Origin: Octopus sinensis
Lineage: Eukaryota
Assembly (NCBI RefSeq): GCF_006345805.1
Contig: NC_043010.1
Span: 65,100,001 to 65,164,000 of the forward strand
Length of the DNA: 64,000 nt
Direction of reading: 5' to 3'
Shown in pieces: positions 7,371-56,635 of the stretch. Under the pieces are notes generated by a model. The model saw only the letters and a program-made list of their open reading frames with translations, was not told the DNA's origin and did no database searches. The position numbers were made by a program, and so were the translations under genes. The stretch's first letter is position 1, and each line of letters starts with the position of its first letter.

Positions 7371-7496
7371 TCTGTTCTAGGTTTACATTTGGTCCTCAGT
7401 GCAAAAAGTCTTGTCATTGTTCCAAACCATGTAACCACATCAATGGATCGTGTCCAGGTGAATGTGACCCAGGGTACACCGGATTCAACTGCCAAG
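7371..7496 (+). CDS. RPTP exon: EGF-like repeat, A-type (A1)
   Basis: ctag|...caag|gttaat; phase 1-1; [41 protein letters not shown]. Confidence 0.88.
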
Positions 7497-55400: not shown

Positions 55401-56635
55401 TTGAACACTTTTCTGAAAATAAGTTTCAAGTTTGGTGATCATTGATACACTAATGACTATTTGGATTAGTTATCTTACACCGGAAATGTACGAACAGTAG
55501 GTCGTATATATGTGGGTAAATTTGATTAGCAAACTCCAGAATCGAAAGAACTGAAACATTTCCCTTGCTACCCTAGAAATTTTTAAACGTGTTATTTTGG
55601 ACATGTTGCGAGTTTGAATTTCATTGTTAGTGATAGGTAAATATTTCTCTCAATTTAGATAAACAAATTCAAAAGTACAGCAGGAGGCCACATCAATAAA
55701 CTTTACATCTATTTATTAATATATCTTATAGGGAACACTCAGTAACCAGTGGCTGGCCATTGAGTTAAGGAATGTTATATGTTACTGTACAAAATCAGTA
55801 AATCACCATTATTTTAATCTCGATATTATGAGAGGAAATTAATAGGACTTTGTAATGATTCATGTCCGGGATCACCAAAATTATAGTTCACAATTACTTT
55901 ATTTAGAACAATGTTATCTATTTAGACATACACCTCTGATATGTTCCATATTTAAGAAGTTAGTATATCTTCATGTAATCATTTCTACTAAAGGTACAAG
56001 GGCTGAAAGTTTGGGGGAAGGTACTAGTCGATTACATCTACTAGTGTGTTTCACTGGTACCTATTTTTATCGACGAAAGATGAAAGATGCCTTGGCAGAA
56101 TTTGAATTCAGAATGTTCACACGGACGAAATACCGCTAAGCGTTTCGCCCGATTTTGACAGCTTTCTACTTAAGACACAAGGCCTGGAATTTGGGGAGGA
56201 AGTTAATAGATTACATTGACCCCAGTGCGTAACTAGTACTTAATTTATAGACCCCGAAAGGATGAAAGGCAAAGTCGACCTCGGCGGAATTTGAGCTAAT
56301 AATGTTCACAGGGATGAAATAACGCTAAGCATTTCGCCCGGCGCGCTAACGATTCTGCCAGCTCGCCGCCTTAGTATATCTTCATATAATGAATACATCT
56401 GCGTAAATTAGTACCAAGAGCTTATTTCGAAAGTTATTTTTATTAGATATGGACGGAATTTATAATGCTAAGTAAAGGATACAGTAAAATAAAATAATTG
56501 TGTATTAAGTCATTTTAAATGATTTGATTGAATAACTCATATTTATTTCTTTGACAGGAATCCTACGCCTTCGTTTGGAAAGTTGCAGAATATTTACAGA
56601 ACGAATCGTCTCTATACTCCAATTTTGTACAGTGA
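7371..56635 (+). CDS. Multi-exon receptor-type protein tyrosine phosphatase (EGF-like repeats-TM-PTP D1-PTP D2), 5'-partial; span of coding exons
   Basis: 23 GT-AG exons with compatible phases join into one open frame ending in TGA at 56633-56635; PTP motifs [46 protein letters not shown] occur in order. Confidence 0.93.
7742..7876 (+). CDS. RPTP exon: EGF-like repeat, B-type (B1)
   Basis: ttcag|...caag|gtataa; [44 protein letters not shown]. Confidence 0.9.
7958..9200. repeat. Segmental duplication copy 1 (pairs with 13666-14420)
   Basis: 7958-8295 matches 13666-13995 and 8810-9200 matches 14032-14418 almost base for base, including a mariner end. Confidence 0.9.
10810..11160. repeat. Three imperfect ~120-nt tandem units (catactaata...ccaaccctatacatacacacgtccagacc)
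   Basis: Direct reading. Confidence 0.8.
11332..11369 (+). ncRNA. Minimal type I hammerhead motif with variant core (CUGUUGA)
   Basis: TCTTT-CTGTTGA-A-GAGC-gtag-GCTC-GAAAC-GTT-AAAGA: stem I 5 bp, stem II 4 bp, palindromic ACGT stem III. Confidence 0.65.
11601..12100. repeat. Two abutting perfect inverted repeats
   Basis: 11601-11644 is the reverse complement of 11883-11926; 11924-11973 is the reverse complement of 12051-12100. Confidence 0.92.
12124..12539 (-). mobile_element. tRNA-derived SINE, family 1
   Basis: Head gcaggagtggctgtgtggtaag...ggttcagtccc (A/B boxes), tail tgactgaaacaagtaaaagag repeats; further copies at 33934-34335 (+) and partial 19525-19670, 25335-25480. Confidence 0.8.
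12840..12968 (+). CDS. RPTP exon: EGF-like repeat, A-type (A2)
   Basis: tttcag|...gaag|gtaatt; [42 protein letters not shown]. Confidence 0.9.
13203..13337 (+). CDS. RPTP exon: EGF-like repeat, B-type (B2)
   Basis: ttttcag|...caag|gtataa; [44 protein letters not shown]. Confidence 0.9.
13440..14420. repeat. Collapsed duplicate of region 1-9200
   Basis: Colinear blocks matching 1-125, about 3480-3530, 7958-8295 and 8810-9200. Confidence 0.85.
14190..15350 (-). mobile_element. Decayed mariner transposon
   Basis: [28 protein letters not shown] (14531-14716); degenerate TIRs at both ends. Confidence 0.8.
15663..15791 (+). CDS. RPTP exon: EGF-like repeat, A-type (A3)
   Basis: tttcag|...aaag|gttatt; [42 protein letters not shown]. 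Confidence 0.9.
16053..16142 (+). pseudogene. Decayed B-type EGF pseudo-exon
   Basis: Same spacing after an A exon as B1/B2; acceptor atattttcag; reads [18 protein letters not shown]...SDGF versus [19 protein letters not shown]...SDGC; in-frame TAA, lost Cys, no donor. Confidence 0.65.
18474..18520 (+). ncRNA. Degenerate hammerhead motif in an old PLE-like 3' end
   Basis: CTGATGA-TGTAC-ttca-GTACG-t-GAAA-TATATT; stem I poorly paired. Confidence 0.4.
20047..20140 (+). CDS. RPTP exon: transmembrane helix
   Basis: ttccag|...tattg|gtatgt; [32 protein letters not shown]; phase 1-2. Confidence 0.88.
20762..21750 (+). mobile_element. Decayed mariner transposon (same family as 14190-15350)
   Basis: TIR-like tacgagagatgctgaaaggttc; ORF 21341-21721 with FHQDNA and [12 protein letters not shown]. 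Confidence 0.87.
22872..22966 (+). CDS. RPTP exon: basic juxtamembrane segment
   Basis: ttag|g...acag|gtcggt; [31 protein letters not shown]; phase 2-1 fits neighbours. Confidence 0.8.
23440..24955. mobile_element. Long-TIR (about 150 bp) non-autonomous DNA element with a nested R4 copy; extra TIR copy at 21886-22000
   Basis: 23445-23600 is the approximate reverse complement of 24810-24955; 21886-22000 is nearly identical to 23445-23555. Confidence 0.65.
24053..24522 (-). mobile_element. R4/Dong-like RLE retrotransposon 3' fragment
   Basis: IDMSIPCD...KLRKYKDL...PVIVGALG; near-identical to 54670-55090; flanked by (ATT)n. Confidence 0.88.
25096..25313 (+). mobile_element. Solo PLE terminal repeat with degenerate hammerhead (25182-25216) in (TA)n
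   Basis: Homologous to 2418-2630 (-); GTTT-CCGACGA-A-GAGC-tcc-GCTC-GAAAC-tct-AAAC. Confidence 0.7.
25997..26136 (+). CDS. RPTP exon: juxtamembrane tyrosine motifs and start of D1
   Basis: ttatag|...ttg|gtcagt; [46 protein letters not shown]. Confidence 0.85.
26801..26888 (+). CDS. RPTP D1 exon (KNRY loop)
   Basis: cacag|...cctt|gtaaat; [29 protein letters not shown]. Confidence 0.93.
27220..27528 (-). mobile_element. tRNA-derived SINE, family 3
   Basis: Minus head ggaggcgcaatggcccagtaattagagg...gcggtttcgattcccagacc with A/B-box-like motifs. Confidence 0.7.
27983..28050 (-). ncRNA. Type I hammerhead ribozyme with intact core
   Basis: Minus strand: ttgttgca-CTGATGA-atatgAAATGCA-tattc-TGCATTaaatgc-GAA-ATCAC-at-GTGAT-A-tgtaacag; 8-bp stem I with two G-U pairs, palindromic stem III, AUA cleavage triplet. 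Confidence 0.8.
28908..28981 (+). CDS. RPTP D1 exon (DHSRV, DYINA)
   Basis: tttcag|...agt|gtacgt; [25 protein letters not shown]. Confidence 0.93.
29774..29798 (+). CDS. RPTP D1 25-nt micro-exon (YIACQG)
   Basis: tgttttgtttcag|aaccagcgttatattgcttgtcaag|gtatgt; NQRYIACQ(G). Confidence 0.9.
32467..32564 (+). CDS. RPTP D1 exon (DFWRMIW, IVMLT)
   Basis: aacag|...aag|gtatag; [33 protein letters not shown]. Confidence 0.94.
33622..33744 (+). CDS. RPTP D1 exon (KCxxYWP)
   Basis: gtcag|...aag|gtaagg; [41 protein letters not shown]. Confidence 0.93.
33934..34335 (+). mobile_element. tRNA-derived SINE, family 1
   Basis: Homologous to 12124-12539 in opposite orientation. Confidence 0.8.
35498..35655 (+). 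CDS. RPTP D1 exon (WPD loop to VHCS)
   Basis: tttacag|...tgcag|gtttgt; [53 protein letters not shown]. Confidence 0.93.
36620..36812 (+). mobile_element. tRNA-derived SINE, family 2 (gagttcaaattccgcc...ttcggggtcgat)
   Basis: B-box-like gagttcaaattcc; other copies near 18665-18820 (-), 33250-33390 (-), 47640-48048 (-, two), 55990-56375 (-, two). Confidence 0.75.
36960..37095 (+). CDS. RPTP D1 exon (P-loop second half to Q-loop)
   Basis: tttcag|...agg|gtgagt; [45 protein letters not shown]. Confidence 0.94.
40183..40332 (+). CDS. RPTP exon: end of D1 and D1-D2 linker
   Basis: ttccag|...cag|gtaagc; [50 protein letters not shown]. Confidence 0.9.
40544..40598 (+). CDS. RPTP D2 exon 1 (short; lacks KNRY)
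   Basis: tttcaag|...ggtg|gtaagt; [18 protein letters not shown]; phase 0-1. Confidence 0.65.
43353..43393 (+). CDS. RPTP D2 exon 2 (degenerate DYINA/FID)
   Basis: [14 protein letters not shown]|gtgagt; acceptor gaag after a T-rich tract fits phase 1; 5' boundary uncertain. Confidence 0.6.
45187..45309 (+). CDS. RPTP D2 exon 3
   Basis: tgtaag|...gag|gtaaaa; [41 protein letters not shown] aligns to FIxTQxP...DFWxM...IVML. Confidence 0.8.
45599..45975. mobile_element. Mariner-derived non-autonomous element
   Basis: TIR tacgaggggtgctggaagttcctggc; related fragments at 17130-17240 and 22000-22175. Confidence 0.55.
46324..46455 (+). CDS. RPTP D2 exon 4
   Basis: catag|...aat|gtaagc; [44 protein letters not shown] (YWP>YLP). 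Confidence 0.8.
46600..47140 (-). mobile_element. L1/Tx1-like LINE RT remnant
   Basis: [18 protein letters not shown] resembles LISLDQxKAFDRVxHxYL. Confidence 0.6.
48107..48545 (+). mobile_element. R4/Dong-like fragment after (AAT)n
   Basis: [12 protein letters not shown]...[31 protein letters not shown]. Confidence 0.8.
48637..49185. mobile_element. About 550-bp non-coding insertion embedded in (ATT)n
   Basis: Higher-GC block with sharp edges, flanked both sides by ATT repeats, no credible ORF. Confidence 0.55.
49233..50381 (-). mobile_element. R4/Dong-like RLE retrotransposon, 5'-truncated, plus a second ~130-nt 3' tail copy in tandem (50250-50381)
   Basis: ORF 49336-50151: CRICG...HIISSC zinc knuckle, RHD, RPDIVV...IDVS...KLSKY; (ATT)n flanks. 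Confidence 0.9.
50817..50968 (+). CDS. RPTP D2 exon 5 (WAD, VHC)
   Basis: ttgcag|...tgtcg|gtaagt; [51 protein letters not shown]. Confidence 0.87.
52558..54070 (+). mobile_element. R4/Dong-like retrotransposon, decayed, from RT C-terminus to tail
   Basis: YKYLG...[20 protein letters not shown], then RHD and KPD with stops; (AAT)/(GAT)n upstream and (AAT)n downstream. Confidence 0.9.
54168..55089 (+). mobile_element. R4/Dong-like retrotransposon, 5'-truncated, head-to-tail with the previous copy
   Basis: [27 protein letters not shown]...IDMS...KLRKY; one frameshift. Confidence 0.9.
55160..55295 (+). CDS. RPTP D2 exon 6 (degenerate P-loop)
   Basis: taaag|...tgt|gtgagt; 136 nt like the D1 equivalent; [45 protein letters not shown]. 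Confidence 0.82.
56558..56635 (+). CDS. RPTP terminal coding exon
   Basis: ttgacag|; [25 protein letters not shown]. Confidence 0.87.
   Translation, partial: ESYAFVWKVAEYLQNESSLYSNFVQ

What the first reader, a model, noticed from the sequence alone, without database searches (positions are those of the whole stretch)
7371..56635. Draper/MEGF10-type ectodomain fused to a tandem-domain receptor tyrosine phosphatase
Seen: five phase-1 EGF-like exons with the C-x4-FG-xx-C-xxx-C-x-C...GYxGxxC pattern splice in frame to a TM exon and then to PTP D1/D2. Established: this repeat type characterises engulfment/scavenger receptors (CED-1, Draper, MEGF10, SREC), whereas classical RPTPs use Ig, FN3, MAM or CA ectodomains. 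Inference: a recognition receptor wired directly to a phosphatase, possibly an invertebrate immune or self-recognition receptor. Similar architectures may be annotated in other molluscs; I cannot establish novelty here.
Basis: partly seen in the sequence, partly recalled or inferred. Interest (0 to 1): 0.75.

Follow-up and report, generated by a model that had tools for sequence, protein, structure and literature searches.

The report
Octopus lectin-EGF receptor tyrosine phosphatase cluster
This is the rear part of a real, spliced octopus gene joining an EGF-repeat stalk to two tyrosine-phosphatase domains; it likely acts as a recognition receptor, but the design is already described in snails and widespread in molluscs, and the local novelty is a tandem family whose outermost domain is changing unusually fast.

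Summary
Observation confirmed. Twenty-three GT-AG exons (7371-56635) give one stop-free frame: five EGF-like repeats, a TM helix, a D1 phosphatase with intact catalytic motifs and a degenerate D2. One spliced contig joins EGF5, TM, JM1 and JM2 with this copy's alleles. The 5' end is cut by an assembly gap; neighbouring paralogues add a signal-peptide exon, a jelly-roll domain and an F-type-lectin-fold domain. The label needs correcting: repeat spacing is C-x3-C (49 of 50), not Draper/MEGF10's C-x-C (114 of 114), and no EMI domain was found. The architecture is published for Biomphalaria (PMC12297450, PMC13712769) and 17 non-octopus mollusc proteins with this ectodomain carry a PTP domain. This scan reported it before on other DNA (e1-9854468). 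Added here: a tandem cluster of at least four to five related genes whose distal jelly-roll domain shows dN/dS about 3.6 (p 0.0005) against 0.3 for D1, with differing phosphatase and tyrosine motifs between copies. New member of a known kind.

The parts
7371..7496 (+). EGF-like exon 1 in window (short type, phase 1-1)
7742..7876 (+). EGF-like exon 2 (long type, phase 1-1)
12840..12968 (+). EGF-like exon 3 (short type)
13203..13337 (+). EGF-like exon 4 (long type)
15663..15791 (+). EGF-like exon 5, membrane-proximal; its 3' end is joined to the TM exon in spliced contigs
20047..20140 (+). Transmembrane exon
22872..22966 (+). Juxtamembrane exon 1 (basic stop-transfer stretch)
25997..26136 (+). 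Juxtamembrane exon 2 with YEEI-x8-YVNM tyrosine pair
26801..40332 (+). PTP domain D1, eight exons (26801-26888, 28908-28981, 29774-29798, 32467-32564, 33622-33744, 35498-35655, 36960-37095, 40183-40332); KNRY, WPDHG, HCSAGVGR and Q-loop present
40544..56635 (+). PTP domain D2 and tail, seven exons (40544-40598, 43356-43393, 45187-45309, 46324-46455, 50817-50968, 55160-55295, 56558-56635); WAD and HCRKNFHK in place of the catalytic motifs; C-terminal YSNF; stop at 56633-56635
57045..57050 (+). First AATAAA after the stop (candidate polyadenylation signal, untested)

Best explanation
The window holds the 3' 23 exons of one spliced, single-pass receptor tyrosine phosphatase gene of the mollusc lectin/EGF-repeat class, one copy in a tandem octopus cluster, which likely works as a non-self or damage recognition receptor. 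Shown: EGF stalk, TM, D1 with all catalytic motifs, degenerate D2, splicing of EGF5-TM-JM1-JM2, and paralogues that begin with a hydrophobic leader exon, an EGF-like cap, a jelly-roll domain, one EGF and an F-type-lectin-fold domain. Inferred: this copy has the same head (it lies in an assembly gap); the fast-changing jelly-roll domain plus the lectin-fold domain bind a variable ligand (glycan or protein on microbes, parasites or altered cells); the glycosylated EGF repeats act as a spacer whose length varies by exon duplication or skipping; ligand-driven clustering or dimer change sets D1 activity towards phosphotyrosine substrates such as Src-family kinases; D2 is a regulatory pseudophosphatase; the YEEI, YVNM and C-terminal YSNF tyrosines would dock SH2 proteins (Src, Grb2, PI3K-type), much as PTPRA's tail tyrosine does.
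For: Frame and splice sites. Spliced contig X3 record 16 carries TM and JM1 with the intron removed, and loose ends equal to the EGF5 3' end and the JM2 5' end; the JM2 end matches exactly only this copy. Pfam Y_phosphatase E 1.5e-76 and F5_F8_type_C_2 above cut-off in P0001, whose D1 is 99.2% identical to this copy. Model of P0004's head: lectin domain matches fucolectin/lectinolysin lectin domains at Z 21.4, rmsd 1.8, 136 aligned. Jelly-roll domain omega 3.57, LRT p 0.0005 against omega 1, holding under three frequency models and with any one of five sequences dropped (omega 3.0-4.1, p at most 0.0033); D1 0.32, D2 0.28; its two exons are more diverged than the intron between them in 9 of 10 pairs. 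C-terminal YxN in 18 of 23 family proteins. Same design at schistosome-resistance loci in Biomphalaria (PMC12297450, PMC13712769).
Against: No tissue, ligand or activity data; the runs are coded and only guessed to be RNA. The binding head of this copy is not in the assembly at this place, so the selection result belongs to paralogues A, B, C, D and C9321, not to the window gene. The lectin-fold domain itself shows omega 0.68 (p 0.14), not above 1, and lacks the Asp of the fucose motif; C-type copies also lack the His. The first of the two jelly-roll exons alone is not significant (omega 2.0, p 0.14). Gene conversion, evident as mosaic identity, can bias tree-based omega, and seven partitions were tested. 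The snail link to resistance is genetic association, not a functional test.
Confidence: 0.55

Rival explanations
1. Cell-adhesion or self-recognition receptor (neural wiring, skin, sucker or gamete) that works like vertebrate R2A/R2B RPTPs, with variable heads giving isoform- or allele-specific binding between own cells.
For: Best PDB matches are PTPRA, PTPRS, PTPRE, PTPRF, and for single domains PTPRT/K/M; RPTPs act at adhesions (PMC7959691); F-type lectins also serve gamete recognition in oyster bindins (PMC5712786). Positive selection fits self/gamete recognition as well as immunity.
Against: No Ig, FN3 or MAM Pfam hits; the only published genetic link for this architecture is parasite resistance.
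Confidence: 0.22
2. The window copy is not a separate locus but an uncollapsed allele (haplotig) of paralogue A, placed inverted by scaffolding; the receptor is real but the copy count is inflated.
For: The whole 93-kb gap-bounded contig that holds the window aligns inverted to C14:64.85-64.94 Mb at 88-99% in blocks; gaps flank it; D1 differs from A by one residue in 277 codons.
Against: A third version, unplaced contig C9321, is 99.2% identical to the window contig over 53 kb, closer than A, and a fourth D2 piece lies at 65.19 Mb: more than two versions need more than one locus in a diploid. Named proteins P0001 and P0002, both listed on one 84.7-Mb contig of a related species, carry the W-type and A-type TM/JM residues respectively.
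Confidence: 0.15
3. The copy is a 5'-truncated duplicate (decoy or incipient pseudogene) lacking leader and binding head.
For: No leader or lectin exon on + upstream within the contig.
Against: The contig starts at a gap mid-way through the EGF array, exactly where the alignment to A is cut; frame intact; W-type alleles are in spliced contigs of 3 of 4 runs; P0001 has a lectin domain with W-type tail.
Confidence: 0.06
4. EGF exons and PTP exons belong to separate genes.
For: The JM2-D1 joint was not seen directly.
Against: One contig spans EGF5-TM-JM1-JM2 and runs 449 letters past JM1 although JM2 is only 140; the JM2-D1 intron is 664 nt, GT-AG, in frame; same exon order in paralogues A, B, C, D and on C29; 24 of 50 database hits join this ectodomain to a PTP domain.
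Confidence: 0.02

Closest known systems
[quoted passage not shown]
   Same: Galactose-binding/fucolectin domain, MEGF-type repeats, one TM, tandem PTP domains; clustered recent paralogues, extracellular diversity, EGF-number variation, hard-to-assemble region (against 22, 29, 30).
   Different: Cephalopod; octopus D1 sequences form their own clade (100/100, 10 rows), so the expansion is independent; an extra distal jelly-roll domain carries the selection signal; antistasin neighbours and one-to-one orthology were not tested.
Database octopus models P0001, P0002, P0004, P0005 (LOC115219456), P0007, P0008, P0011 (named PTPRT-like, MEGF6, uncharacterized)
   Same: P0001 D1 99.2% identical to this copy; P0005 is paralogue C; P0011 is the C29 gene.
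   Different: P0001/P0002 skip exon 40544 and lose D2 by frameshift; P0007 is stitched from several paralogues; no retrieved model equals this copy.
CED-1 / Draper / MEGF10 / MEGF11 / PEAR1 engulfment receptors
   Same: Eight-cysteine EGF-like repeats with G-x-[YF]-G-xx-C ends; single pass; YxxI-x8-YxxM resembles an ITAM (recalled definition).
   Different: C-x3-C instead of C-x-C spacing, no EMI hit, lectin-fold head, catalytic tail rather than recruited enzymes.
Vertebrate tandem-domain RPTPs (PTPRA/E, PTPRS/F, PTPRT/K/M)
   Same: Active-type D1, degenerate D2, C-terminal YxN tyrosine like PTPRA Y789 (the PTPRA motif letters are recalled).
   Different: Different ectodomain; scores do not pick one subtype (366.1 versus 364.5 bits for PTPRA and PTPRS).

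Membership tests
Classical tandem-domain receptor PTP | Single TM helix between ectodomain and PTP domains | tested here: met
   Exon 20047-20140, hydrophobic run followed by basic residues; spliced to JM1
Classical tandem-domain receptor PTP | D1 with pTyr loop, WPD loop, HCX5R and Q-loop | tested here: met
   KNRY, WPDHG, HCSAGVGR, MVQ..Q in the model, aligned to PTPRA/PTPRS (via P0004)
Classical tandem-domain receptor PTP | Distal D2 domain, usually a pseudophosphatase | tested here: met
   Second Y_phosphatase stretch in P0004; WAD and HCRKNFHK, no signature Arg; PMC7959691 passage
Classical tandem-domain receptor PTP | Measured phosphotyrosine phosphatase activity | not testable with these tools
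   needs an assay
Mollusc MEGF/GBD RPTP (SudRes1, LG5R 1C) | MEGF-type EGF repeats, one TM, two PTP domains in one gene | tested here: met
Mollusc MEGF/GBD RPTP (SudRes1, LG5R 1C) | Signal peptide and galactose-binding/fucolectin domain | tested here: inconclusive
   Not assembled for this copy (gap); lectin exons present in A, B, C, D, C29 and P0001, leader-like exon in B, C, D; no signal-peptide predictor was run
Mollusc MEGF/GBD RPTP (SudRes1, LG5R 1C) | Clustered paralogues with variable ectodomains | tested here: met
Mollusc MEGF/GBD RPTP (SudRes1, LG5R 1C) | Adjacent antistasin gene; orthology to the Biomphalaria genes | not tested
   No Biomphalaria RPTP among the 50 hits; neighbours were searched only with family proteins
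CED-1/Draper/MEGF10 | Repeat spacing G-x-C-x-C-xx-G | tested here: not met
   Octopus 49 of 50 C-x3-C; Draper/MEGF10/11/PEAR1 114 of 114 C-x-C
CED-1/Draper/MEGF10 | N-terminal EMI domain (recalled) | tested here: inconclusive
   No EMI hit at E 0.01 in six octopus proteins including full-length P0004; this copy's own N-terminus is missing
CED-1/Draper/MEGF10 | Non-catalytic tail with NPxY and ITAM (recalled) | tested here: not met
   Tail is two PTP domains; no NPxY in the printed model; only an ITAM-like YEEI-x8-YVNM
F-type lectin domain (paralogues) | F-type jelly-roll fold and h2DGx cation motif | tested here: met
   Z 21.4, rmsd 1.8, 136 aligned to 3le0; AVDGN present
F-type lectin domain (paralogues) | Fucose motif H...RXDX4(R/K) | tested here: not met
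   His and first Arg at the right spacing in P0002 and P0007, Asp replaced; His replaced by Ser in P0004, P0005, P0008; pattern not found in P0001, P0011

The most novel reading that the evidence does not exclude
The cluster is a cephalopod polymorphic paired-receptor system: heads under diversifying selection in an uncharacterised jelly-roll domain are shuffled by gene conversion onto tails of different output (full KNRY phosphatase with YEEI/YVNM docking sites in W/A; YEEI lost in C; KNLH pTyr loop, likely weakened, in B/D; no juxtamembrane tyrosines on C29), with stalk length tuned by EGF exon number, giving each octopus its own recognition repertoire for parasites or non-self cells.
Probability: 0.25. 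Interest if true: 0.7.

Novelty: new member of a known kind. Interest (0 to 1): 0.33.

Why it matters
The architecture itself is no surprise to a mollusc immunogenomics specialist. It matters as a cephalopod counterpart of the snail resistance-locus receptors: an independent expansion with the same signs (tandem copies, variable heads, variable EGF number) suggests that this receptor class is repeatedly under ligand-driven selection across molluscs, and it points to the distal jelly-roll domain, rather than the EGF repeats or the lectin domain, as the part to test for specificity.

Tried and rejected
No RNA holder listed on record; tissue unknown. Single EGF exons reach no Pfam cut-off (best EGF_STAB1-2 E 0.006). 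The distal jelly-roll domain found no specific solved relative (best Z 7.6; Foldseek none at E 0.001); the Atlas lead to mollusc F5/8-type clusters (0.90) is a lead only. Pairwise FTP values involving paralogue C are artefacts of a one-base frameshift in its first lectin exon and were replaced. IQ-TREE's fixed-omega runs failed, so an own M0 likelihood was used. The whole-genome PF22633 search found only 4 matches and missed known copies, so it gives no family count. The tree had no vertebrate outgroup and left out P0003, P0005, P0007, P0008 and paralogue B. Paper searches for a cephalopod description of this family (terms octopus/cephalopod, tyrosine phosphatase, hemocyte, MEGF, expansion, immune) listed none; PMC11228953 mentions only PTPN11; subscription journals and supplements were not seen and may hold such a description. 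PMC9646362 passages did not mention these receptors. No complex prediction was run: no partner is known.
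Full report
Setting. The window is G000:C14:65,100,001-65,164,000 of a 2.7-Gb genome. The nearest database proteins are octopus ones, and those labelled Octopus sinensis are listed on contigs of the same lengths as C14 and C29, so the genome is taken as octopus. The DNA is AT-rich, full of microsatellites and transposon remnants.

Observation. Twenty-three exons from 7371 to 56635, with 22 of 22 introns GT-AG, give 848 residues and one terminal stop (the last acceptor was corrected to 56558). 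EGF exons are phase 1-1 and alternate between a short (126-129 nt) and a long (135 nt) type, the mark of a two-exon duplication unit. D1 holds KNRY, WPDHG, HCSAGVGR and the Q-loop; D2 has WAD and HCRKNFHK, with no signature Arg. That fits the active-D1, pseudophosphatase-D2 rule stated in PMC7959691 (passages). JM2 carries YEEI-x8-YVNM and the tail ends in YSNF.

One gene. Contigs of four runs (RNA by guess only) were laid on the TM-JM1 stretch of paralogue A. All 4 skip the intron at canonical ends. X3 record 16 (1078 letters) holds both exons, with loose ends equal to the 3' end of EGF exon 5 and the 5' end of JM2; the JM2 end matches exactly only the window copy (25997), the EGF5 end the window copy and C; the TM letters and a 9-nt insertion are of the window type in X1, X3 and X5, while X2 shows C-type letters. 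The record runs 449 letters beyond JM1, more than JM2's 140, so it probably enters D1, but those letters were not shown. In X5 a different, more upstream EGF exon is joined straight to TM, as in model P0001: stalk length varies, by skipping or by allele.

What is missing. Three more EGF exons lie just 5' of the window, then a 100-N gap at 65,095,005. The head has to be read from paralogues: hydrophobic leader exon, EGF-like cap, a two-exon beta domain, one EGF, a two-exon F5/8-type domain, then the EGF array. A model of P0004's head (mean pLDDT 73.8) matches fucolectin-type domains at Z 21.4, rmsd 1.8 over 136 residues. The fucose motif given in PMC5712786 (passages) is only partly kept: His and first Arg in P0002 and P0007, Asp lost, His replaced by Ser in P0004, P0005, P0008, so the sugar is uncertain. 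The two-exon beta domain folds as an eight-stranded jelly roll with no specific match (best Z 7.6).

The cluster. Between 64.68 and 65.34 Mb lie D(-), A(-), B(-), the window copy W(+), a D2 fragment(+) and C(+), split by four gaps. W's 93-kb contig aligns inverted to A's region at 88-99% in blocks, which raised the haplotig question. Unplaced contig C9321 is 99.2% identical to W's contig over 53 kb and is the better allele; with A and the fragment there are more than two versions, and P0001/P0002 show W-type and A-type TM/JM residues on one contig of a related species. So W and A are probably paralogues, but B and D, and other pairs, may be alleles; the count of four to five genes is a floor for versions and uncertain for loci. 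A further member sits on C29 and a distant EGF-PTP gene at C14:64.2-64.5 Mb. Octopus D1 sequences form one clade (100/100) apart from the other mollusc sequences.

Selection. An M0 codon model on five head sequences (A, B, C, D, C9321) gives omega 3.57 for the jelly-roll domain (96 codons, p 0.0005 against omega 1), 1.63 and 1.72 for flanking EGF-like exons (not significant), 0.68 for the lectin domain (p 0.14), 0.64 for TM/JM, 0.32 for D1 and 0.28 for D2. The jelly-roll result holds under three frequency models, a star tree and each leave-one-out; the second exon carries most of it (5.0, p 0.002; first exon 2.0, p 0.14). Its exons differ more than the intron between them in 9 of 10 pairs. Caveats: seven partitions tested, conversion mosaics, one assembly, and W's own head is absent. 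Tails differ too: W/A have KNRY with YEEI and YVNM/V; C has CEEI; B/D have KNLH and YEDI; C29 has KNQY and no JM2 tyrosines.

Mechanism. Most likely a recognition receptor: variable head binds a ligand, the EGF stalk (six N-glycosylation sequons in the five window repeats) spaces it, clustering changes D1 activity, D2 and the tyrosine motifs organise SH2 partners. The anatomy and splicing are shown; ligand, tissue, direction of regulation and partners are inferred (SH2 preferences and the ITAM definition are recalled; PTPRA Y789 recruiting Grb2 and Src is from PMC7959691). A C-terminal YxN is kept in 18 of 23 family proteins, which argues that it matters.

Comparison. With the P0004 ectodomain as query, 24 of 50 hits carry a PTP domain, all from molluscs: 7 octopus and 17 from chiton, bivalves and gastropods; the 10 Draper/MEGF/PEAR1 hits carry none. 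PMC12297450 (passages and first part of the Discussion) describes MEGF/GBD RPTPs, 17 in B. sudanica, clustered, duplicated, with EGF loss, at a resistance-associated locus; PMC13712769 (passages and section 20) defines the same design as subgroup 1C. The Draper label fails on spacing: 49 of 50 octopus repeats are C-x3-C, 114 of 114 Draper/MEGF10/11/PEAR1 repeats C-x-C. Vertebrate subtype cannot be assigned by score. This scan noted the same kind of gene in another octopus genome and fast-changing lectin loops in another mollusc; those notes were seen after the selection test.

Verdict. Real, spliced, 5'-incomplete member of a published mollusc receptor class; the diversifying jelly-roll domain and mixed tails in an octopus-specific cluster are the only additions. 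Interest 0.33.

Noticed in passing
G000:C25:10,775,000-10,913,000 (-): Dozens of EGF exons of the same type in a row on one strand, suggesting a receptor with a very long stalk; tail not examined.
   Followed up: no
G000:C14:64,206,903-64,503,052 (+): A more distant lectin-EGF-PTP gene with a long EGF array, WPE in place of WPD and SNGVGR after the catalytic-loop exon boundary.
   Followed up: partly
G000:C14:64,700,022-64,772,816: Paralogue D carries internal 98%-identical repeats of its TM-JM-D1 and D1 exon blocks, either assembly duplication or real internal duplication.
   Followed up: partly
P0001, P0002 versus window 40544-40598: Two database models skip this 55-nt exon, shift frame and end without D2; could be a real D1-only isoform or a model error.
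   Followed up: no
P0007; P0005; G000:C14:65,250,993: P0007 is stitched from exons of several paralogues; P0005's N-terminus is an out-of-frame reading caused by a one-base frameshift in paralogue C's first lectin exon.
   Followed up: partly
window:51228-51575 (+) and 45729-45926 (+): Protein-like open frames of 116 and 66 codons inside D2 introns, no Pfam hit, shared with the A, fragment and C9321 copies of the intron.
   Followed up: partly
window:21314-21718, 9707-10396, 3975-4583, 52489-54963, 62554-63912: Transposon remnants: mariner-type transposase (Pfam Transposase_1), two GIY-YIG pieces, reverse-transcriptase-element tails (zf-RVT weak), others unassigned.
   Followed up: partly
C11630, C8134, C10818 (unplaced contigs): Further pieces of the family (EGF arrays, a C-type EGF-TM-D1 stretch, a lectin-EGF stretch); C10818 resembles P0001's first repeats and may be part of the window copy's missing head.
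   Followed up: partly
P0009, P0012, P0016 (oyster): The same EGF repeat type is listed with 7tm_2 and GAIN Pfam accessions, i.e. fused to adhesion-GPCR tails.
   Followed up: no
window:60153-60506; G000:C14:65,360,957-65,364,000: A 178-bp direct duplication in the window and a ~33-bp satellite array past paralogue C.
   Followed up: no
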